A DNA stretch of 64,000 nt, taken from NCBI RefSeq assembly GCF_029227855.1, contig NZ_CP074356.1. The stretch is one strand, 5' to 3'. Both the position numbers and the translations under genes were made by a program. The notes beneath the pieces are model-generated. The model searched no databases. It saw only the letters and a list, made by a program, of their open reading frames with translations, and was not told the origin of the DNA. Source of the stretch: Escherichia coli. Its GTDB lineage: Bacteria > Pseudomonadota > Gammaproteobacteria > Enterobacterales > Enterobacteriaceae. Shown in pieces: positions 51,383 through 61,025 of this stretch (position 1 is the stretch's first letter; every line of letters begins with the position of its first letter).

Positions 51383-51535
51383 ATGCTGACAAAATATGCC
51401 CTTGTGGCAATCATCGTACTGTGTTGTACAGTACTGGGATTCACGCTGATGGTAGGCGACTCGTTGTGTGAGTTGAGTATCAGAGAACGTGGTATGGAGT
51501 TTAAGGCAGTTCTCGCTTACGAATCGAAGAAGTAG
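51383..51535 (+). CDS. hokX: Hok/Gef-family type I toxin (hokX-like), 50 aa: [50 protein letters not shown]
   Basis: Below the ORF-track size cutoff; translated by hand: single TM helix then Hok signature SLCEL-IR...G.E..A.LAYES; GGGAGG RBS 6 nt upstream; lies between cysH and cas3 like the K-12 hokX/sokX locus. Confidence 0.8.
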
Positions 51536-51729: not shown

Positions 51730-54360
51730 ATGCGTAAATATCCTTTAAGTTTACTGAAGGATAAAAATATTGTGACTTTTTTTGATTTCTGGGGAAAAAC
51801 CCGACGCGGCGAGAAAGACGGGGGCGACGACTATCACCTTCTTTGCTGGCATTCGCTGGATGTAGCCGCGATGGGCTATTTAATGGTTAAAAGCAATTGC
51901 TTCGGGCTGACTGACTATTTTCGTCAACTAGGTTTCGCTGATACGGAGCAGGCAGCACAATTTTTCGCCTGGCTATTGTGCTGGCACGATACTGGAAAAT
52001 TTGCCCGCTCTTTTCAGCAACTTTACCTGCACCCACAACTCAAGGTTCCGGAAGGCGCAAGAAAGAATTACGAAAAGATCTCTCATTCAACGCTGGGCTA
52101 CTGGCTGTGGCATCATTATTTAAGTGAATACGAAGAATTGCTTCCTTCATCTTCACTCTCTCCGCGCAAACTTAAACGGGTGATGGAGATGTGGATGCCC
52201 ATGACTACCGGGCATCATGGTCGGCCCCCTGACCGTATTGATGAACTGGATAATTTTCTGCCTGAAGACAAAGCTGCCGCACGAGATTTTCTCCTTGAAA
52301 TCAAGGTACTGTTTCCGCTCATCGAGATCCCCGCATTCTGGGATGATGACGAGGGCATTGAACTTTTAAAACAACTTTCCTGGTATATCTCTGCAACCGT
52401 CGTACTCGCAGACTGGACGGGATCGTCAACGCGGTTTTTTCCACGCGTTGCACAGGCAATGGATATTAAAGATTACTGGCAGAAGGCTTTAGTTCAGGCT
52501 CAAAACGCCTTAACCGTCTTTCCTCCAAAAGCACAAACCGCGCCTTTCACCGGAATTAATACGCTGTTTCCTTTTATTGAGCACCCGACACCGTTACAGC
52601 AAAAGGTGCTGGATCTGGATATCAGCCAGCCTGGGCCACAGTTATTTATTCTGGAGGATGTGACTGGCGCAGGTAAAACAGAAGCGGCGCTTATCCTGGC
52701 CCACAGGTTGATGGCTGCGGGGAAAGCACAGGGTTTGTTTTTTGGCCTGCCAACAATGGCAACGGCCAATGCCATGTACGATCGGCTGGTAAAAACCTGG
52801 CTTGCTTTCTATTCGCCAGAATCCCGCCCCAGCCTGGTGCTGGCACACAGTGCCCGCACATTAATGGACCGCTTTAATGAATCACTCTGGTCCGGTGATT
52901 TAGTCGGGTCAGAAGAACCGGATGAACAAGCGTTCAGTCAGGGATGTGCGGCCTGGTTTGCCGACAGTAACAAGAAGGCGTTGCTGGCTGAAATTGGCGT
53001 CGGCACGCTGGATCAGGCGATGATGGCGGTGATGCCGTTTAAACATAATAATCTGCGGCTTCTGGGACTGAGTAACAAAATCCTGCTGGCTGATGAGATC
53101 CATGCCTGTGACGCTTACATGTCGTGCATTCTTGAAGGATTGATTGAGCGGCAGGCGCGTGGAGGAAACAGCGTTATTTTGCTTTCTGCCACGTTATCTC
53201 AACAGCAGCGCGACAAACTCGTTGCTGCCTTTGCGCGTGGTGCAGAGGGCCAGCAAGAAGCTCCGTTCCTGGAAAAGGATGATTACCCCTGGCTGACGCA
53301 CGTTACGAAATCGGATGTGCATTCACACCGGGTAGCAGCGCGCAAAGACGTTGAGCGTAGCGTGAGCGTGGGTTGGCTTCATAGCGAACAAGAGTGTATT
53401 GCGCGTATCGAATCGGCGGTAAGTCAGGGGAAATGCATCGCCTGGATCCGGAATTCTGTCGATGATGCTATTAAAGTTTATCGTCAGTTACTTGCCCGCG
53501 GCGTCATTCCTGCTTCCAGCCTTTCTCTTTTTCATAGCCGCTTTGCTTTTAGCGATCGCCAGCGAATTGAAACGGAAACGCTGGCACGCTTTGGTAAAGA
53601 AGATAGCTCACAGCGTGCCGGAAAAGTCCTCATTTGTACTCAGGTCTTAGAGTCGAGCGTTGATTGCGATATGGACGAAATGATTTCCGACCTTGCCCCC
53701 ATTGATTTGCTGATCCAGCGAGCGGGGCGATTACAGCGACATATCCGCGATATTAATGGTCAGTTAAAGCGTGACGGAAAAGACGAGCGTTCCCCTCCTG
53801 AATTGCTGATTCTGGCCCCCGTCTGGGACGACGCTCCAGGTGACGAATGGTTCGGCAGTGCCATGCGTAACAGTGCATATGTCTATCCCGATCATGGACG
53901 AATCTGGCTGACGCAGCGTGTACTGCGTGAGCAAGGCGCTATTCAAATGCCACACGCAGCCCGCCTTCTTATTGAATCAGTCTACGGTGAGGACGTGGTA
54001 ATGCCGGAAGGATTTGCCCGCAGCGAGCAGGAACAAGTGGGCAAATATTACTGCGATCGCGCAATGGCTAAAAAGTTTGTGCTGAACTTTAGGCCCGGCT
54101 ATGCCGCCAATATCAACGATTACCTCCCGGAAAAACTGTCGACACGTCTGGCTGAGGAGTCTGTTTCCCTGTGGCTGGCTACCTGTATTGCCGGTGTGGT
54201 GAAGCCTTATGCCAACGGTGCTCACGCATGGGAAATGAGCGTTGTCAGAGTGCGTCGAAGCTGGTGGAAAAACATCGGGATGAGTTTTCTTTACTGGAAG
54301 GGGAAGCGTTCAGGCAGTGGTGCATTGAACAGCGGAAAGATCCGGAGATGGCAAACGTGA
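51730..54360 (+). CDS. cas3: Cas3 HD nuclease / superfamily 2 helicase (type I-E); ORF ends at 54360 after about 35 low-quality codons, while a protein-like C-terminal segment continues in another frame to 54428 (apparent frameshift near 54240-54262)
   Basis: ORF track 876 aa; HD motif LLCWHDTGKF, Walker A DVTGAGKTEAAL, motif II LLADEIHACD, motif VI QRAGRLQRH; track ORF 54171..54428 carries ...KLVEKHRDEFSLLEGEAFRQWCIEQ... Confidence 0.88.
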   Translation: MRKYPLSLLKDKNIVTFFDFWGKTRRGEKDGGDDYHLLCWHSLDVAAMGYLMVKSNCFGLTDYFRQLGFADTEQAAQFFAWLLCWHDTGKFARSFQQLYLHPQLKVPEGARKNYEKISHSTLGYWLWHHYLSEYEELLPSSSLSPRKLKRVMEMWMPMTTGHHGRPPDRIDELDNFLPEDKAAARDFLLEIKVLFPLIEIPAFWDDDEGIELLKQLSWYISATVVLADWTGSSTRFFPRVAQAMDIKDYWQKALVQAQNALTVFPPKAQTAPFTGINTLFPFIEHPTPLQQKVLDLDISQPGPQLFILEDVTGAGKTEAALILAHRLMAAGKAQGLFFGLPTMATANAMYDRLVKTWLAFYSPESRPSLVLAHSARTLMDRFNESLWSGDLVGSEEPDEQAFSQGCAAWFADSNKKALLAEIGVGTLDQAMMAVMPFKHNNLRLLGLSNKILLADEIHACDAYMSCILEGLIERQARGGNSVILLSATLSQQQRDKLVAAFARGAEGQQEAPFLEKDDYPWLTHVTKSDVHSHRVAARKDVERSVSVGWLHSEQECIARIESAVSQGKCIAWIRNSVDDAIKVYRQLLARGVIPASSLSLFHSRFAFSDRQRIETETLARFGKEDSSQRAGKVLICTQVLESSVDCDMDEMISDLAPIDLLIQRAGRLQRHIRDINGQLKRDGKDERSPPELLILAPVWDDAPGDEWFGSAMRNSAYVYPDHGRIWLTQRVLREQGAIQMPHAARLLIESVYGEDVVMPEGFARSEQEQVGKYYCDRAMAKKFVLNFRPGYAANINDYLPEKLSTRLAEESVSLWLATCIAGVVKPYANGAHAWEMSVVRVRRSWWKNIGMSFLYWKGKRSGSGALNSGKIRRWQT

Positions 54361-54525
54361 TTTTAGTTACCGATGACGAAAGTTGCGGGTATTCGGCTAT
54401 GGAAGGATTGACTGGCAAGGTTGGTTGAGATGCCTGCGACAGGGCTCTCTGAATAGTTGATACACCGAAAAGGATGGAATGATGGACAACCGACCTGGGA
54501 TGGTCTTTTTTACGAGAGGATGCGT

Positions 54526-56088
54526 ATGAACTCGTTTTCACTTCTGACAACCCCGTGGTTGCCCGTTCGTTATAAAGACGGAACGACAGGCAAACTGGCG
54601 CCTGTCGATCTGGCGGATGAAAATGTTGTCGATATTGCTGCGCCACGGGCAGATCTCCAGGGAGCGGCATGGCAGTTTTTGCTGGGGCTACTACAAACCA
54701 GCTTTGCGCCAAAAGATCATCGTCGTTGGGATGATATCTGGGAAGACGGACTGGAATCTGAAAAGCTACGGGAAGCATTGCTGTCCTTAGAACACGCTTT
54801 CCAGTTTGGGCCAGATTCCCCTTCATTTATGCAGGATTTCGAGGCGCTCACAGGAGATAAAGTTCAGGTCGCTTCGCTACTGCCTGAGATTCCCGGCGCT
54901 CAAACAACGAAGTTTAATAAAGACCACTTTATCAAGCGTGGTGTAACGGAATACCTGTGCCCACATTGTTCTGCGTTAGCTCTGTTCTCCCTACAGTTAA
55001 ATGCGCCGTCAGGTGGTAAAGGCTACCGCACCGGTTTACGCGGCGGTGGGCCGATGACCACTCTGATTGAATTACAGGAATATCAGGGCAATCAACAAAC
55101 GCCCTTGTGGCGCAAACTGTGGCTCAATGTGATGCCGCAGGACGAAGCCGACTTACCGCTACCCAAAAAATTTGACGATCTGGTTTTCCCCTGGCTTGGC
55201 CCGACGCGTACCAGCGAACTGGCCGGTGCGGTGGTAACCGATGATCAGGTTAATAAACTCCAGGCGTACTGGGGAATGCCGCGGCGTATTCGTATTGATT
55301 TTAATACCACGACAGTCGGCAACTGCGATATTTGCGGCGAGCAGAACGACGCGCTCCTGAGCCTGATGACGACCAAAAATTACGGCGCGAATTATGCCAT
55401 GTGGCAGCATCCCTTAACGCCTTACCGTGTACCCCTTAAAGAGGGCGGCGAGTTTTACTCGGTCAAACCACAACCAGGCGGTTTAATCTGGCGCGACTGG
55501 TTAGGCCTTATCGAAACGGGTAAATCAGAAAACAATACGGAACTTCCCGCGCTGGTGGTGAAACTCTTTAATGCCAGCAGTCTCAAGCAGGCAAAAGTGG
55601 GCCTATGGGGATTTGGTTATGATTTTGACAACATGAAAGCGCGCTGTTGGTACGAACACCATTTCCCGCTACTGCTCAATAAAAAAGAAGGCCAGATACC
55701 GAAGCTGCGGCTGGCTGCGCAAACGGCTTCACGGATTCTGAGTCTGTTACGGAGTGCATTGAAAGAAGCATGGTTCTCCGATCCAAAAGGTGCAAGGGGT
55801 GATTTCAGTTTTGTGGATATCGACTTCTGGAACAAAACTCAGCATCGCTTCCTGAGGTTAGTGCGCCAAATTGAAGAAGGTCAGGATGCGGATGAATTAC
55901 TCGGCAAATGGCAAAAGGAAATTTGGTTATTCGCGCGTCAGGATTTTGACGAGCGTGTATTCACTAATCCTTATGAGCCCGTTGATTTGAAACGCGTCAT
56001 GACCGCGCGCAAGAAATATTTTACAACATCGGCGGAGAAGCAAAGTGCTAAAGCCGCCAGGGAGAAAAAGCAGGAGGCTGCTGAATGA
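54526..56088 (+). CDS. casA: Cascade large subunit Cse1 (CasA), 520 aa
   Basis: ORF track 543 aa trimmed to MNSFSLLTTPWLPVRYKDG (ATG 54526, GAGAGGA RBS); first gene after cas3 in I-E order. Confidence 0.88.
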   Translation: MNSFSLLTTPWLPVRYKDGTTGKLAPVDLADENVVDIAAPRADLQGAAWQFLLGLLQTSFAPKDHRRWDDIWEDGLESEKLREALLSLEHAFQFGPDSPSFMQDFEALTGDKVQVASLLPEIPGAQTTKFNKDHFIKRGVTEYLCPHCSALALFSLQLNAPSGGKGYRTGLRGGGPMTTLIELQEYQGNQQTPLWRKLWLNVMPQDEADLPLPKKFDDLVFPWLGPTRTSELAGAVVTDDQVNKLQAYWGMPRRIRIDFNTTTVGNCDICGEQNDALLSLMTTKNYGANYAMWQHPLTPYRVPLKEGGEFYSVKPQPGGLIWRDWLGLIETGKSENNTELPALVVKLFNASSLKQAKVGLWGFGYDFDNMKARCWYEHHFPLLLNKKEGQIPKLRLAAQTASRILSLLRSALKEAWFSDPKGARGDFSFVDIDFWNKTQHRFLRLVRQIEEGQDADELLGKWQKEIWLFARQDFDERVFTNPYEPVDLKRVMTARKKYFTTSAEKQSAKAAREKKQEAAE

Positions 56089-56621
56089 GTATTGTAAAAG
56101 AGGAGCACAAAGCCACGCTGCGTAAATGGCACGAAGAGTTGCAGGAAAAACGCGGCAATCGTGCCAGTCTGCGGCGTAGCACAACGGTTAATGATGTTTG
56201 TCTGTCAGAAGGGTTTCGTTCTCTGCTGATGCAGACCCACACGTTGTGGAAAATTGAATCACAGGAGTGGCGTTTTACCGCACTGGCGCTGGTTGCCGCC
56301 GTTGCCGCCAATGTAAAAGCCATTGATGAACGGCAGCCTTTTGCCGCGCAGTTGGCGGCGGTAATGTCTGAGGGGCGTTTTACTCGCCTGTCGGCAGTCA
56401 AAACGCCGGATGAATTACTGCGCCAGTTACGTCGCGCGGTCAAATTATTAAATGGTTCCGTCAATCTTATCTCTTTGGCAGACGATATTTTCCGCTGGTG
56501 CCAGGAGAGCGACGATCTGCTCAATCATCACCGCCGCCAGCAGCGGCCAACAGAATTTATCCGTATCCGCTGGGCGCTGGAATATTACCAGGCTGGCGAC
56601 GCCGATAACGAACAAAATTAA
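56085..56621 (+). CDS. casB: Cascade small subunit Cse2 (CasB), 178 aa
   Basis: ORF track 178 aa; ATGA overlap with the cse1 stop. Confidence 0.85.
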   Translation: MSIVKEEHKATLRKWHEELQEKRGNRASLRRSTTVNDVCLSEGFRSLLMQTHTLWKIESQEWRFTALALVAAVAANVKAIDERQPFAAQLAAVMSEGRFTRLSAVKTPDELLRQLRRAVKLLNGSVNLISLADDIFRWCQESDDLLNHHRRQQRPTEFIRIRWALEYYQAGDADNEQN

Positions 56622-56635
56622 TAAAGGACTATCTC

Positions 56636-57691
56636 ATGACGACATTTATTCAGCTTCATTTGTTAACCGCTTACCCTGCTGCCAACCTTAACCGTGATGA
56701 CACCGGTGCGCCAAAAACTGTGGTACTGGGTGGAGCAACGCGTCTGCGCGTTTCCTCACAAAGTCTGAAACGTGCGTGGCGCACTTCTGCACTTTTTGAA
56801 CAGGCACTGGCGGGCCATATTGGTATTCGCAGTGGGCGTATTGCGCGTGAGGCGGCAACTATCCTGATTGAGAAAGGCATCGAAGAGAAAAAAGCCATCG
56901 AATGGGCGGCAAAAATTGCGGATTATCTTGGGAAAGCTAAAAACGACAAAAAACCAAAAGATCCGCTCACTAACGCCGAAACTGAACAGCTAGTCCATAT
57001 CAGCCCGGCAGAATTTGACGCCGTAAAAGCGCTGGCCCATCAACTGGCCGAAGAAAAGCGCGCGCCAAAAGAGGAAGATCTCGCTTTGTTACGTAAAGAT
57101 CGCATGGCGGTAGATATCGCTATGTTTGGTCGTATGCTGGCGAATAAACCCGAATTTAATGTTGAAGCCGCCTGCCAGGTCGCGCATGCATTTGGTGTCA
57201 GTGAAACGATTGTCGAAGATGATTTTTTCACCGCCGTTGATGATTTGCGCCAGGCTTCTGAAGATGCCGGTGCCGGGCATCTTGGTGAAACCGGATTCGG
57301 TTCTGCGCTGTTCTACACCTATATCTGCATCGATAAAGATCTGCTGGTCGAAAACCTCGGCGGTGACGAAGCGTTAGCTAATCAGACCTTGCGCGCCTTT
57401 ACGGAAGCCGCACTTAAAGTCTCCCCAACCGGCAAACAGAACAGCTTTGCCAGCCGTGCCTACGCCTCCTGGGCGCTGGCAGAAAAAGGCACTGAACAAC
57501 CACGCTCTCTGGCGGCGGCTTTCTATGAACCCATTAATGGCACCCGGCAGTTAGATGTGGCGGTGCAGCGTATTACAACGCTTCGCGAAAATATGAATAC
57601 GGTCTATGAACAGAAGACCGAATGCGCAAGCTTTGACGTGATGAACAAACAGGGAAGCATGAAGGACGTGCTGGACTTTATCTGCGCGTAA
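56636..57691 (+). CDS. casC: Cascade backbone subunit Cas7 (CasC), 351 aa
   Basis: ORF track 351 aa MTTFIQLHLLTAYPAANLNRDDTGAPK... Confidence 0.88.
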   Translation: MTTFIQLHLLTAYPAANLNRDDTGAPKTVVLGGATRLRVSSQSLKRAWRTSALFEQALAGHIGIRSGRIAREAATILIEKGIEEKKAIEWAAKIADYLGKAKNDKKPKDPLTNAETEQLVHISPAEFDAVKALAHQLAEEKRAPKEEDLALLRKDRMAVDIAMFGRMLANKPEFNVEAACQVAHAFGVSETIVEDDFFTAVDDLRQASEDAGAGHLGETGFGSALFYTYICIDKDLLVENLGGDEALANQTLRAFTEAALKVSPTGKQNSFASRAYASWALAEKGTEQPRSLAAAFYEPINGTRQLDVAVQRITTLRENMNTVYEQKTECASFDVMNKQGSMKDVLDFICA

Positions 57692-57701
57692 GGGGCGGCT
57701 A

Positions 57702-58448
57702 ATGAGCCAATATTTGATTTTTCAGCTTCATGGGCCAATGGCATCCTGGGGCGTCGATGCCCCCGGCGAAGTGCGTCATACCCATGAACTGCCTTCGCGC
57801 TCAGCATTGCTGGGGCTGCTGGCTGCCGGGGTAGGGATTCGGCGTGATGATACCGAACGATTAAACGTGTTTAACCGCCACTATTCACTGGTGGTTTGCG
57901 CCAGCCGTAACCCGCGCTGGGCACGGGATTATCACACAATCCAGATGCCAAAAGAGGTGCGTAAAGCGCGTTATTTCAGCCGTCGCGAAGAGTTGAGCGA
58001 CCCTGATCTTCTGAGCGCGATTATCTCCCGGCGCGACTACTACACCGACGCCTGGTGGATGGTGGCGGTGGCAACAACAGCCGATGCGCCTTACAGCCTC
58101 GAACAGTTGCAGGGCGGTTTACGCCATCCAGTTTTTCCTCTTTATCTGGGGCGAAAAAGTCATCCGCTGGCGTTACCACTTGCGCCGTTACTGCTCGAAG
58201 GCAACGCGTCTGATGTCTTACGTAACGCATACCAACAGTATCAGGATAGTTTCCGCGAACTGAAAGTCTCACTCCCGAAACTTCAGGATGAATGCTGGTG
58301 GGAAGGGGAACACGACGGCCTGGTCGCGAGCAAAATATTACGTCGCCGGGATGTTCCTTTAAATCGTCAGCAGTGGCTGTTTGGGGAACGCACCATCAAT
58401 CAGGGGCCGTGGCTCAGCAAGGAGGAACCATGTACCTCTCAAGAATAA
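57702..58448 (+). CDS. casD: Cascade subunit Cas5 (CasD), 248 aa
   Basis: ORF track 248 aa MSQYLIFQLHGPMASWGVDAPGEVRHT...LLGLLAAGVGIRRDD. Confidence 0.88.
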   Translation: MSQYLIFQLHGPMASWGVDAPGEVRHTHELPSRSALLGLLAAGVGIRRDDTERLNVFNRHYSLVVCASRNPRWARDYHTIQMPKEVRKARYFSRREELSDPDLLSAIISRRDYYTDAWWMVAVATTADAPYSLEQLQGGLRHPVFPLYLGRKSHPLALPLAPLLLEGNASDVLRNAYQQYQDSFRELKVSLPKLQDECWWEGEHDGLVASKILRRRDVPLNRQQWLFGERTINQGPWLSKEEPCTSQE

Positions 58449-59076
58449 CCTTACATACCGGCCAGCTTTCGCCTGCGCAGTTGCTGCATCTGGTGGATCG
58501 CGGTGAATATGTAATGCATCAGTGGCTGTGGGATCTTTTTCCTGGCGGCAAAGAAAGGCAATTTCTTTATCGTCGGGAAGAACTCCTGGGGGCGTTTCGC
58601 TTTTTTGTCCTGTCGCAGGAACGCCCGGCGGAAAATGATATTTTCACCATCGAATGCCGACCATTTGCGCCAGAGTTGCGTACCGGACAATCCCTTTGTT
58701 TCAACCTGCGGGCGAATCCAACAATTTGTAAAGCGGGCAAACGCCACGACTTGCTGATGGAGGCGAAACGGCAGGTGAGGGGGCAGGTGGAAGGAAGTGA
58801 TGTCTGGTTGCATCAACAACAGGCGGCGCTGGACTGGCTGGCAGCGCAGGGGGAAAGAAGCGGTTTTACACTACTGGATACCTCGGTCGATGCCTACCGA
58901 CAACAGCAACTGCGGCGGGAAAACTCCCGGCAACTGATCCAGTTCAGTAGCGTGGATTATACGGGGATGCTTACGGTCACCGATCCTGGGTTATTTCTGC
59001 AACGTCTGAGCCAGGGGTATGGCAAAAGCCGCGCGTTCGGCTGTGGTCTGATGCTGATCAAACCCGGAGCAGAGGC

Positions 59077-59080
<4 letters not shown>
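58430..59080 (+). CDS. casE: Cas6e (CasE) pre-crRNA endoribonuclease, 216 aa
   Basis: ORF track 262 aa trimmed to MYLSRITLHTGQLSPAQL (ATG 58430, GGAGG RBS); 19-nt overlap with cas5; C-terminal G-rich motif GYGKSRAFGCGLMLI. Confidence 0.86.
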
Positions 59081-60290
<1,210 letters not shown>

Positions 60291-60386
60291 GTTATCTGTT
60301 CTTTAAAAATAAGGAAATGTTTTAATTTAGTTGGTAGATTGTTGATGCGGAATAAATTTGTTTAAAAACAGTTATGTATGCTTAGT
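60291..60386 (+). promoter_or_regulatory. AT-rich CRISPR leader between cas2 and first repeat; contains GTTGGTAGATTGT at 60330-60342
   Basis: AT-rich 96 bp; motif shared with the queE-proximal array leader at the same spacing. Confidence 0.7.
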
Positions 60387-61025
60387 GTGTTCCCCGCGCC
60401 AGCGGGGATAAATCGAGATCACCGTGTTAAATAACCGATTGAACGCCGTGTTCCCCGCGCCAGCGGGGATAAATCGGCCAGGCCAATACAGTTGGCGAAG
60501 AAGCGAAGGTGTTCCCCGCGCCAGCGGGGATAAATCGACACCGGGCTGGATAAAAAAACTATCGGGAAAGTGTTCCCCGCGCCAGCGGGGATAAATCGCC
60601 GTTTGATAGCTGTTCACGCTGGCTGATGCCGTGTTCCCCGCGCCAGCGGGGATAAACCGCGCAGTTCGCTACCGAGCGTGGTTTGCTGGTCGTGTTCCCC
60701 GCGCCAGCGGGGATAAACCGGCGCACAGCGACGCGAAATCAACGAAAATTTAGTGTTCCCCGCGCCAGCGGGGATAAACCGATTGCCAGATACTGTGTAT
60801 ATCCACCGACTAAGTGTTCCCCGCGCCAGCGGGGATAAACCGCAGGGAAACCGTTCGTACTTATCGACCTCAACGTGTTCCCCGCGCCAGCGGGGATAAA
60901 CCGAAGGGGACGGCTACGGGACGCCGCCTATTGATGTGTTCCCCGCGTCAGCGGGGATAAACCGGACGCACTGGATGCGATGATGGACATCACTTGGAGT
61001 TCCCCGCCCCTGCGGTAGAACTCCC
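60387..61025 (+). CRISPR. CRISPR array (K-12 CRISPR I / 2.1 equivalent): 11 x 29-bp repeats GTGTTCCCCGCGCCAGCGGGGATAAA(T/C)CG, 10 x 32-bp spacers, period 61; terminal repeat degenerate (GAGTTCCCCGCCCCTGCGGTAGAACTCCC)
   Basis: Repeats start at 60387, 60448, 60509, 60570, 60631, 60692, 60753, 60814, 60875, 60936, 60997; counted directly. Confidence 0.96.

What the first reader, a model, noticed from the sequence alone, without database searches (positions are those of the whole stretch)
54171..54428. cas3 appears frameshifted about 60 codons before its natural end
The long cas3 frame reads convincing Cas3 sequence up to ...ANGAHAWEMS, then runs about 35 codons of Arg/Trp-rich, non-protein-like sequence (SVVRVRRSWWKNIGMSFLYWKGKRSGSG...) to a stop at 54360. 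A second frame carries protein-like sequence (SKLVEKHRDEFSLLEGEAFRQWCIEQRKDPEMANVILVTDDESCGYSAMEGLTGKVG) to 54428. That pattern fits a 1-nt indel around 54240-54262, either a real inactivating mutation or a sequencing error. If real, the interference nuclease lacks its C-terminal domain while the adaptation genes and Cascade remain intact.
Basis: partly seen in the sequence, partly recalled or inferred. Interest (0 to 1): 0.6.

Follow-up and report, generated by a model that had tools for sequence, protein, structure and literature searches.

The report
One-base deletion truncating E. coli cas3
The E. coli CRISPR nuclease gene cas3 in this window is missing one A from a run of six, which cuts off the last 52 amino acids; this is an ordinary strain-private pseudogene or a single sequencing error, not a new kind of feature.

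Summary
The type I-E cas3 gene (starts at 51730) has an A5 run at 54268-54272. Two near-identical relatives have A6 there: JNEC-KY178, and GCA_017075055.1 at 99.98% identity. So did every relative aligned or listed. None of 2,410 complete E. coli genomes matched an A5 probe exactly. The frame shifts at codon 848. The product is 876 aa (847 native plus 29 aberrant) instead of 899.

"SVVRVRRSWWK" is genuine Cas3, and "SKLVEK" in the second frame is not.

The lost 52 residues are the confidently modelled second half of the C-terminal domain (AlphaFold2 pLDDT 81-95; TM 0.77 to T. fusca Cas3). They include Y888 and G893, which are invariant in 100 diverse homologues. The HD nuclease and helicase cores, Cascade, cas1-cas2 and both CRISPR arrays are intact.

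This is the only indel in about 63 kb outside the arrays when compared with the nearest relative, so the assembly is clean. The same A5 call also appears in three error-ridden public assemblies, so this run is prone to miscalling.

Real recent mutation about 0.55; lone sequencing error about 0.38. Only reads or Sanger sequencing can decide. Low interest.

The parts
51730..54270 (+). cas3, native reading frame, codons 1-847 (HD nuclease, RecA1, RecA2, linker and first half of the C-terminal domain)
   Evidence: ORF. Pfam Cas3_HD at 21-237 and Cas3-like_C_2 at 566-672. NCBIfam cas3_core and cas3_HD score above their cut-offs for the truncated protein as well. Only one substitution against JNEC-KY178 (53892, D721E).
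54268..54272 (+). A5 homopolymer: site of the one-base deletion (A6 in relatives)
   Evidence: Alignment A1. Indel list against JNEC-KY178. A6 in L008, L009 and L010. No exact match to the 69-nt A5 probe in 2,410 complete E. coli genomes.
54271..54360 (+). Out-of-frame tail: 29 aberrant codons (NIGMSFLYWKGKRSGSGALNSGKIRRWQT) plus stop TGA
   Evidence: Translations.
54273..54428 (+). Orphaned native 3' end of cas3 (codons 849-899, HRDEFSLLEGEAF...YSAMEGLTGKVG, plus stop), now in another frame
   Evidence: Inserting one A restores an 899-aa protein that differs from JNEC-KY178 Cas3 at one residue. Y888 and G893 are invariant in 100 homologues.
54171..54428 (+). It is a mechanical ORF: its first 34 residues are out-of-frame sequence and there is no family match.
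   Evidence: No NCBIfam hit.
54526..56088 (+). casA/cse1 (520 aa), intact
   Evidence: Identical to the annotated JNEC-KY178 gene. The exact protein is on record on 24 read contigs.
56085..56621 (+). casB/cse2 (178 aa), intact
56636..57691 (+). cas7e/casC (351 aa), intact
57702..58448 (+). cas5e/casD (248 aa), intact
58430..59080 (+). cas6e/casE (216 aa), intact
   Evidence: Coordinates transferred from the JNEC-KY178 annotation. No differences. ORF end confirmed.
59077..60000 (+). cas1e (307 aa), intact
59997..60290 (+). cas2e (97 aa), intact
60387..60964 (+). CRISPR-1 array next to cas2: 10 repeats and 9 spacers
34109..34686 (+). CRISPR-2 array (ygcE-queE interval): 10 repeats and 9 spacers

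Best explanation
A genuine, very recent single-base deletion in an A6 run has turned the type I-E cas3 of this E. coli strain into a 3'-truncated pseudogene. The mechanism would be slipped-strand mispairing at codons Lys847-Lys848 (AAA AAA).

Shown:
- The window carries A5 at 54268-54272.
- The frame shifts at codon 848.
- The product is 847 native plus 29 aberrant residues.
- The last 52 native residues are lost.
- Those residues form the ordered second half of the C-terminal domain and include two family-invariant residues.
- The HD nuclease, the helicase core, Cascade, cas1-cas2 and both arrays are untouched.
- The allele is private to this genome.

Inferred:
- In type I-E Cas3 the C-terminal domain caps the ssDNA channel over the two RecA domains and helps dock Cas3 on Cse1 of Cascade. 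The truncated protein should therefore fold or dock poorly.
- Target degradation and Cas3-dependent primed adaptation would then be lost or strongly reduced.
- crRNA processing, Cascade target binding and naive Cas1-Cas2 spacer uptake would remain possible.
- E. coli type I-E systems are normally silenced by H-NS (background knowledge from K-12). The loss is therefore probably near-neutral decay rather than an adaptation.
For: - One-base gap in the alignment with three relatives.
- It is the only indel in about 63 kb outside the CRISPR arrays against JNEC-KY178, alongside just 6 SNPs.
- All 8 homopolymers of 7 nt or more, and 59 of 60 six-nt runs, are unchanged. The assembly is therefore not prone to homopolymer errors.
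- The one indel falls in a dispensable gene, as expected for a surviving real frameshift. Two of the 7 differences from JNEC-KY178 lie in cas3, which is 4.3% of the compared length (Poisson P about 0.04, my arithmetic).
- A6 is ancestral. JNEC-KY178 and L009 (99.98% identical, and sharing the window's T at 53892) both have A6.
- Among 24 read contigs encoding the identical CasA, the three distinct contexts shown all carry an 899-aa cas3. The other 21 were collapsed as places with mostly the same neighbouring proteins.
- Structural role of the lost part: AlphaFold2 model with mean pLDDT 91.5 and pTM 0.93. The domain elements are strands 811-820, 823-826 and 838-842, helices 843-852 and 858-868, and strand 876-879. 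Residues 841-890 score pLDDT 87-95.
- The model has TM 0.77 to T. fusca Cas3.
- Y888 (99 of 99) and G893 (100 of 100) are invariant in homologues of 34-69% identity.
- Literature: the C-terminal domain closes the ssDNA channel and contacts Cascade, and T. fusca Cas3 without it binds Cascade less well (PMC5965380).
Against: - There are no reads, so a single consensus error cannot be excluded.
- The same A5 call occurs as an evident artefact in three public assemblies whose cas genes are shattered by frameshifts. This shows the run is easily under-called.
- No independent high-quality assembly carries A5.
- The exact 876-aa protein is absent from a 15-billion-protein collection.
- The functional consequence is inferred from homologues at 26% identity and from a whole-domain deletion. 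No experiment has tested this cas3 variant or this exact truncation.
Confidence: 0.55

Rival explanations
1. Sequencing or assembly error. The organism carries A6 and an intact 899-aa Cas3, and one A was dropped from the consensus at a homopolymer.
For: - The change is a -1 in a homopolymer, the classic error type.
- The identical A5 call is found in GCA_046507405.1, GCA_019430965.1 and SCPN01000303.1. In the two GCA assemblies cysH, cas3, casA and cas7 are all fragmented. SCPN01000303.1 has 75 gaps in 14.5 kb.
- An A7 call also exists (P0169).
- No clean assembly carries A5.
- A published case left cas3 frameshifts in O26 draft genomes unresolved between error and mutation (PMC5592225).
Against: - The window is otherwise free of indels against a relative that differs by only 6 SNPs in about 63 kb.
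- The longer runs, which are more error-prone (six of 7 nt and two of 9 nt), are all correct.
- A random error would fall in cas3 only about 6% of the time: 4 of the 68 runs of 6 nt or more lie in cas3.
Confidence: 0.38
2. The deletion is real, but the truncated Cas3 keeps useful activity as a hypomorph. The HD and helicase cores are complete and the first half of the C-terminal domain remains.
For: - The catalytic domains score the same as in the intact protein.
- Most alignments with homologues of about 40% identity end near residue 842-849, so much of the tail varies in sequence.
- Removing the whole domain from T. fusca Cas3 is reported to lower Cascade affinity, not to abolish it (PMC5965380).
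Against: - The cut falls inside helix 843-852 of a compact, confidently modelled domain.
- The lost part holds the only invariant residues of the tail, Y888 and G893.
- 29 unrelated residues are appended.
Confidence: 0.05
3. Recoding or an on/off switch. Either a -1 ribosomal frameshift or transcriptional slippage on the A-run restores full-length Cas3, or the run is a phase-variable contingency tract.
For: - A -1 shift at TGG AAA AAC would recreate W-K-K-H exactly (sequence).
- The run varies in length (A5, A6, A7) across public assemblies.
Against: - Every relative aligned or listed is in frame with A6, and none of the 2,410 complete genomes holding this segment matches the A5 probe exactly. 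No lineage requires recoding.
- G_AAA_AAC is not a canonical X_XXY_YYZ site.
- The downstream fold is weak (z = -1.94).
- A5 or A6 is far shorter than known slippage or phase-variation tracts.
- The A5 and A7 variants come only from error-ridden assemblies.
Confidence: 0.02

Closest known systems
Type I-E Cas3 of the second E. coli cas variant (the 899-aa form in E. coli W, O157:H7, O104:H4 and others), e.g. WP_471724390.1 of strain JNEC-KY178
   Same: Same gene in the same place (cysH - hok - cas3 - casA...cas2 - CRISPR - iap). After one A is restored the protein differs at one residue (D721E).
   Different: The window has A5 instead of A6 at codons 847-848. This gives an 876-aa product that lacks residues 848-899.
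Thermobifida fusca Cas3 (PDB 4QQW-4QQZ, 6C66) and Thermobaculum terrenum Cas3 (4Q2C)
   Same: Same architecture of HD, RecA1, RecA2, linker and C-terminal domain. The model of the repaired protein has TM 0.77 to these structures. Sequence E-values are 1e-64 to 1e-79.
   Different: Only about 26% identical. The C-terminal domain cannot be aligned by sequence beyond its first strand. The window's protein is cut in the middle of that domain.
E. coli K-12 Cas3 (YgcB, NP_417241.1, 888 aa)
   Same: Same locus position and same system type.
   Different: Only 29% identical, with no alignable C-terminal domain. The cas3-casA gap is 414 nt in K-12 and 97 nt here. K-12 experiments transfer only by analogy.
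Frameshifted cas3 reported in draft genomes of E. coli O26 strains DEC9A, DEC9E and DEC10D
   Same: Premature stops in type I-E cas3 from frameshifts. The authors could not tell error from mutation (PMC5592225).
   Different: Different strains. The positions are not given in the text I read, and DEC9A also has a cse1 frameshift.

Membership tests
Type I-E Cas3 helicase-nuclease | N-terminal HD nuclease domain | tested here: met
   Pfam Cas3_HD at 21-237, E 5e-32. TIGR01596 scores 88.8 bits against a cut-off of 43.45 on the window's 876-aa product.
Type I-E Cas3 helicase-nuclease | SF2 helicase core with two RecA-like domains | tested here: met
   TIGR01587 cas3_core scores 218 bits against a cut-off of 102 on the truncated product. 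Cas3-like_C_2 at 566-672. D455, E456 and H458 are invariant in the family alignment.
Type I-E Cas3 helicase-nuclease | Complete accessory C-terminal domain that caps the RecA domains and faces Cascade | tested here: not met
   The frame is lost at codon 848, inside helix 843-852. Helix 858-868, strand 876-879 and the invariant Y888 and G893 are missing.
Type I-E Cas3 helicase-nuclease | Encoded beside cse1-cse2-cas7e-cas5e-cas6e-cas1e-cas2e and 29-nt type I-E repeats | tested here: met
   Gene order and annotation in the near-identical relative. ORFs in the window. Arrays with the GTGTTCCCCGCGCCAGCGGGGATAAACCG repeat.
Type I-E Cas3 helicase-nuclease | Overall fold like solved type I-E Cas3 structures | tested here: met
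   The model of the repaired 899-aa protein has pLDDT 91.5. Foldseek gives TM 0.77 and E 8e-48 to 4QQZ.
Type I-E Cas3 helicase-nuclease | Cascade-dependent DNA degradation activity | not testable with these tools
   Needs an interference assay with the A5 and repaired alleles.
Programmed -1 ribosomal frameshift / transcriptional slippage gene | The frameshift requirement is conserved among homologues | tested here: not met
   Every relative aligned or listed is in frame with A6. None of 2,410 complete genomes matches the A5 probe exactly.
Programmed -1 ribosomal frameshift / transcriptional slippage gene | Canonical slippery heptamer with a strong downstream structure, or a long homopolymer (9 nt or more) | tested here: not met
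   The site is G_AAA_AAC and the run is only 5 nt. The downstream fold scores z = -1.94, with 9 of 200 shuffles as good.
Phase-variable contingency locus | Tract length polymorphic among high-quality genomes of the species | tested here: not met
   A5 and A7 were found only in assemblies with pervasive frameshifts. Clean relatives all have A6.

The most novel reading that the evidence does not exclude
The deletion is real and was selected, not neutral. Knocking out Cas3 while keeping Cascade and Cas1-Cas2 would have relieved targeting of a newly acquired plasmid or prophage, or would have left a nuclease-free Cascade acting as a natural crRNA-guided repressor. One observation fits a lineage whose system was recently active: the closest relative with intact cas3 carries one extra leader-proximal spacer.
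Probability: 0.04. Interest if true: 0.45.

Novelty: already known. Interest (0 to 1): 0.1.

Why it matters
If the deletion is real, this strain has a type I-E CRISPR system that can still make crRNAs, bind targets and take up spacers, but probably cannot destroy DNA. That is useful to know when typing the strain or predicting its openness to plasmids and phages.

It is also one more example of the piecemeal decay of cas genes in E. coli, where the system is usually silent. It raises no new mechanism.

The practical lesson concerns annotation. The same homopolymer is miscalled in noisy public assemblies. A lone cas3 frameshift at this site should therefore be checked against reads before it is interpreted.

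A small by-product is the invariant Tyr-x4-Gly motif at the extreme C-terminus of this Cas3 clade. It marks the tail as functionally constrained.

Tried and rejected
1. Looked for the A5 allele elsewhere.
   - An exact 27-nt pattern found nothing in the GTDB species representatives.
   - It found one metagenome contig. That contig is 95% identical with 75 gaps, so it is noise.
   - A 69-nt probe gave no exact match in 2,410 complete E. coli genomes. An A5 allele with another nearby change would have escaped this test.
   - The exact 876-aa protein is not on record.
   - A search with the aberrant tail found only fragment ORFs from shattered assemblies.
2. Tried to identify the source genome. 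No complete RefSeq E. coli genome is identical. The best matches are JNEC-KY178 (6 SNPs in about 63 kb) and GCA_017075055.1. The source remains unknown.
3. Tested self-targeting as a reason to lose cas3. All 18 spacers, plus the two extra spacers of JNEC-KY178, hit only the two arrays in the JNEC-KY178 chromosome. They hit no phage record. The only plasmid match is a weak one of 88% identity at E = 0.6. There is no support for self-targeting, but the window's own full genome could not be searched.
4. Tested recoding. The site is not canonical and the downstream fold is weak, so I rejected it.
5. Considered the 85-aa second-frame ORF as a separately made C-terminal piece. Its first 34 residues are out-of-frame sequence. 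The nearest Shine-Dalgarno-like GAGGAG is 11 nt upstream of a GTG start. It has no family hit. Rejected.
6. Tried to read Huo et al. 2014 directly for the domain limits and the deletion data. The paper is not held, so I relied on the review PMC5965380.
7. The promoter and terminator scan of 54100-54600 found nothing above chance.
Full report
**What is in the sequence.** The window is E. coli chromosome, running from the fuc operon through cysJIH, the type I-E cas operon and iap to cysDN. In relatives, cas3 is 2700 nt / 899 aa and occupies the interval that is 2699 nt here. A four-way alignment shows a single gap: the window reads GG-AAAAA-C at 54268-54272 where the others read AAAAAA. Putting one A back gives an 899-aa protein that differs from Cas3 of strain JNEC-KY178 at one residue, D721E.

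The native protein reads ...AHAWEMSVVRVRRSWWKKHRDEFSLLEGEAFRQW...YSAMEGLTGKVG. The frame is lost at codon 848 (AAA to AAC). 847 native residues are followed by 29 aberrant ones (NIGMSF...RRWQT), and 52 native residues are lost. That stretch is genuine Cas3, with S837 near-invariant in the family. The 'SKLVEK' at the start of the second-frame segment is the out-of-frame part.

**How private the change is.**
- 2,451 of 5,426 complete E. coli genomes carry this cas3 variant.
- A 69-nt probe centred on the run found the segment in 2,410 genomes, none with an exact match. The best hits each span 70 nt, which means A6.
- The nearest relative, JNEC-KY178, differs from the window outside the two CRISPR arrays by 6 SNPs and this one indel in about 63 kb.
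- A second relative, GCA_017075055.1 (L009), is 99.98% identical over 9.5 kb. It shares the window's T at 53892 but has A6.
- Among 24 read contigs that encode the identical CasA, the three distinct contexts shown all have an 899-aa cas3. The other 21 were collapsed as similar places.
- A6 is therefore ancestral, and A5 sits on the terminal branch leading to this genome.

**Real mutation or error.**

For a real mutation:
- The window has no other indel against a relative separated by only 6 SNPs.
- All six 7-nt and both 9-nt homopolymers, and 59 of 60 six-nt runs, are unchanged.
- The one change lies in a dispensable gene.
- Together with the D721E substitution, 2 of 7 differences fall in cas3, which is 4.3% of the compared length (Poisson P about 0.04).

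For an error:
- The change is a -1 in a homopolymer.
- The same A5 call turns up in three public assemblies that are plainly riddled with frameshifts. In GCA_046507405.1 and GCA_019430965.1, cysH, cas3, casA and cas7 are all in pieces. SCPN01000303.1 has 75 gaps in 14.5 kb.
- An A7 call also exists (P0169).
- No clean assembly has A5, and the 876-aa protein is not in a 15-billion-protein collection.
- Published work met the same ambiguity for cas3 frameshifts in O26 draft genomes (PMC5592225).

I put a real mutation at about 0.6 overall: 0.55 as an inactivating mutation plus 0.05 as a hypomorph. I put an error at about 0.38. Only reads can settle it.

**What is lost.**
- Pfam and NCBIfam place the HD nuclease (21-237) and the helicase core (306-676) upstream of the break. 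They score the same in the truncated and the intact protein. No library model covers the tail.
- A search of 1.84 billion representatives gave thousands of homologues. I aligned 100 full-length ones of 34-69% identity.
- In the lost segment most positions vary. However, Y888 (99 of 99) and G893 (100 of 100) are invariant and L894 is common, preceded by a hydrophobic strand at 877-880.
- AlphaFold2 on this alignment gave a confident model (mean pLDDT 91.5, pTM 0.93). After a lower-confidence linker at 791-810, a compact C-terminal domain follows: strands 811-820, 823-826 and 838-842, helices 843-852 and 858-868, strand 876-879, and short terminal bridges at 887-893. Confidence there is pLDDT 94-95 for 811-880 and 81-87 for the last 19 residues.
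- The model superposes on T. fusca and T. terrenum Cas3 at TM 0.77.
- A family profile aligns as far as T. fusca 826-838 (TRFGAGSVRVLC), which corresponds to T805-R806-L807 here. This is the entry into that domain.
- The frameshift therefore cuts inside helix 843-852 and removes the second half of the domain.

**Likely consequence (inferred).** According to the review PMC5965380, which cites Huo et al. 2014 and Gong et al. 2014, the C-terminal domain sits on top of both RecA domains and closes the ssDNA channel. It is proposed to contact Cse1, and T. fusca Cas3 lacking it binds Cascade less well. A half-domain with 29 foreign residues is likely to be misfolded. I expect loss or strong reduction of target degradation and of Cas3-dependent priming. 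casA, casB, cas7e, cas5e, cas6e, cas1e and cas2e are base-for-base identical to the annotated intact genes of JNEC-KY178. Both arrays are present with 9 spacers each. crRNA production, target binding and naive spacer uptake therefore remain possible. E. coli type I-E systems are generally silenced by H-NS (my background knowledge, from K-12). That makes neutral decay the simplest evolutionary reading. K-12 Cas3 is only 29% identical and its tail cannot be aligned, so K-12 data apply only by analogy.

**Alternatives examined.**
- Recoding. A -1 shift would recreate W-K-K-H. But relatives are in frame, the heptamer G_AAA_AAC is not canonical, the run is short, and the downstream fold is unremarkable (z = -1.94).
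- Phase variation. Length variants occur only in error-ridden assemblies.
- A separately translated C-terminal piece from the 85-aa ORF. Its first 34 residues are out of frame and it has no family match.
- Selection by self-targeting. The spacers hit only the two arrays in the JNEC-KY178 chromosome and no phage record. The only plasmid match is weak, to a plasmid T4SS gene.

**Comparison and verdict.** This is the known type I-E cas3 of the second E. coli cas variant, carrying a private one-base deletion in a homopolymer. The gene, the system, the kind of lesion and the error-versus-mutation ambiguity are all familiar. Interest is low (0.1). Its interpretation is supported, with corrected coordinates and a corrected native reading.

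Noticed in passing
window 60291-60964 (leader and CRISPR-1): The window's cas-adjacent array has 9 spacers. The near-identical relative JNEC-KY178, whose cas3 is intact, has the same 9 plus one extra spacer at the leader-proximal (newest) position: TCCGTATGGGTCGCCCGGGTGAAATGTTTATC. Either the relative acquired a spacer recently or the window lost its first unit.
   Followed up: partly
window 34109-34686 (CRISPR-2, ygcE-queE interval): The window lacks one internal repeat-spacer unit that JNEC-KY178 has as its 9th of 10 spacers (CGCCAGTCTGAGGTTTTCCGGTCATACATCGT). It looks like a 61-nt deletion between repeats. Two of the structural differences between these two very close genomes are therefore in the CRISPR arrays.
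   Followed up: partly
window 54268-54272; loci L006, L011, L012: The same A-run is called A5 (and A7 in protein P0169) in public assemblies whose whole cas operon and cysH are broken into fragments by frameshifts (GCA_046507405.1, GCA_019430965.1, SCPN01000303.1). This is a recurrent homopolymer miscall site in noisy E. coli assemblies.
   Followed up: yes
window 54390-54410 (codons 888-893 of native cas3): The extreme C-terminus of this Cas3 clade carries an invariant Tyr-x4-Gly(-Leu) motif (Y888, G893). It is conserved in 100 representatives of 34-69% identity, although the surrounding tail is highly variable. Its role is unknown to me.
   Followed up: partly
window 51383-51535: An intact 50-aa Hok/Gef-family toxin ORF lies between cysH and cas3. 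It is annotated as such in relatives. At the same place, the K-12 stretch fetched here shows only the sokX small RNA annotated.
   Followed up: no
window 54429-54525: The cas3-casA gap is only 97 nt in this cas variant, with no sigma-70-like consensus match in 54100-54600. In K-12 the gap is 414 nt. Cascade genes may be co-transcribed with cas3 here, or may use a promoter inside the cas3 3' end.
   Followed up: partly
window 60843-60874 (CRISPR-1 spacer 8): This spacer has a weak match (29 of 33, E = 0.6) to a type IV secretion coupling-protein gene on conjugative plasmids of Enterobacter and E. coli. No spacer matched any of 50,697 phage records.
   Followed up: partly
window 53892: The only substitution in cas3 relative to JNEC-KY178 is T versus G, giving D721E. 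It is shared with GCA_017075055.1. Together with the deletion, 2 of the 7 differences from JNEC-KY178 in about 63 kb lie in cas3.
   Followed up: partly
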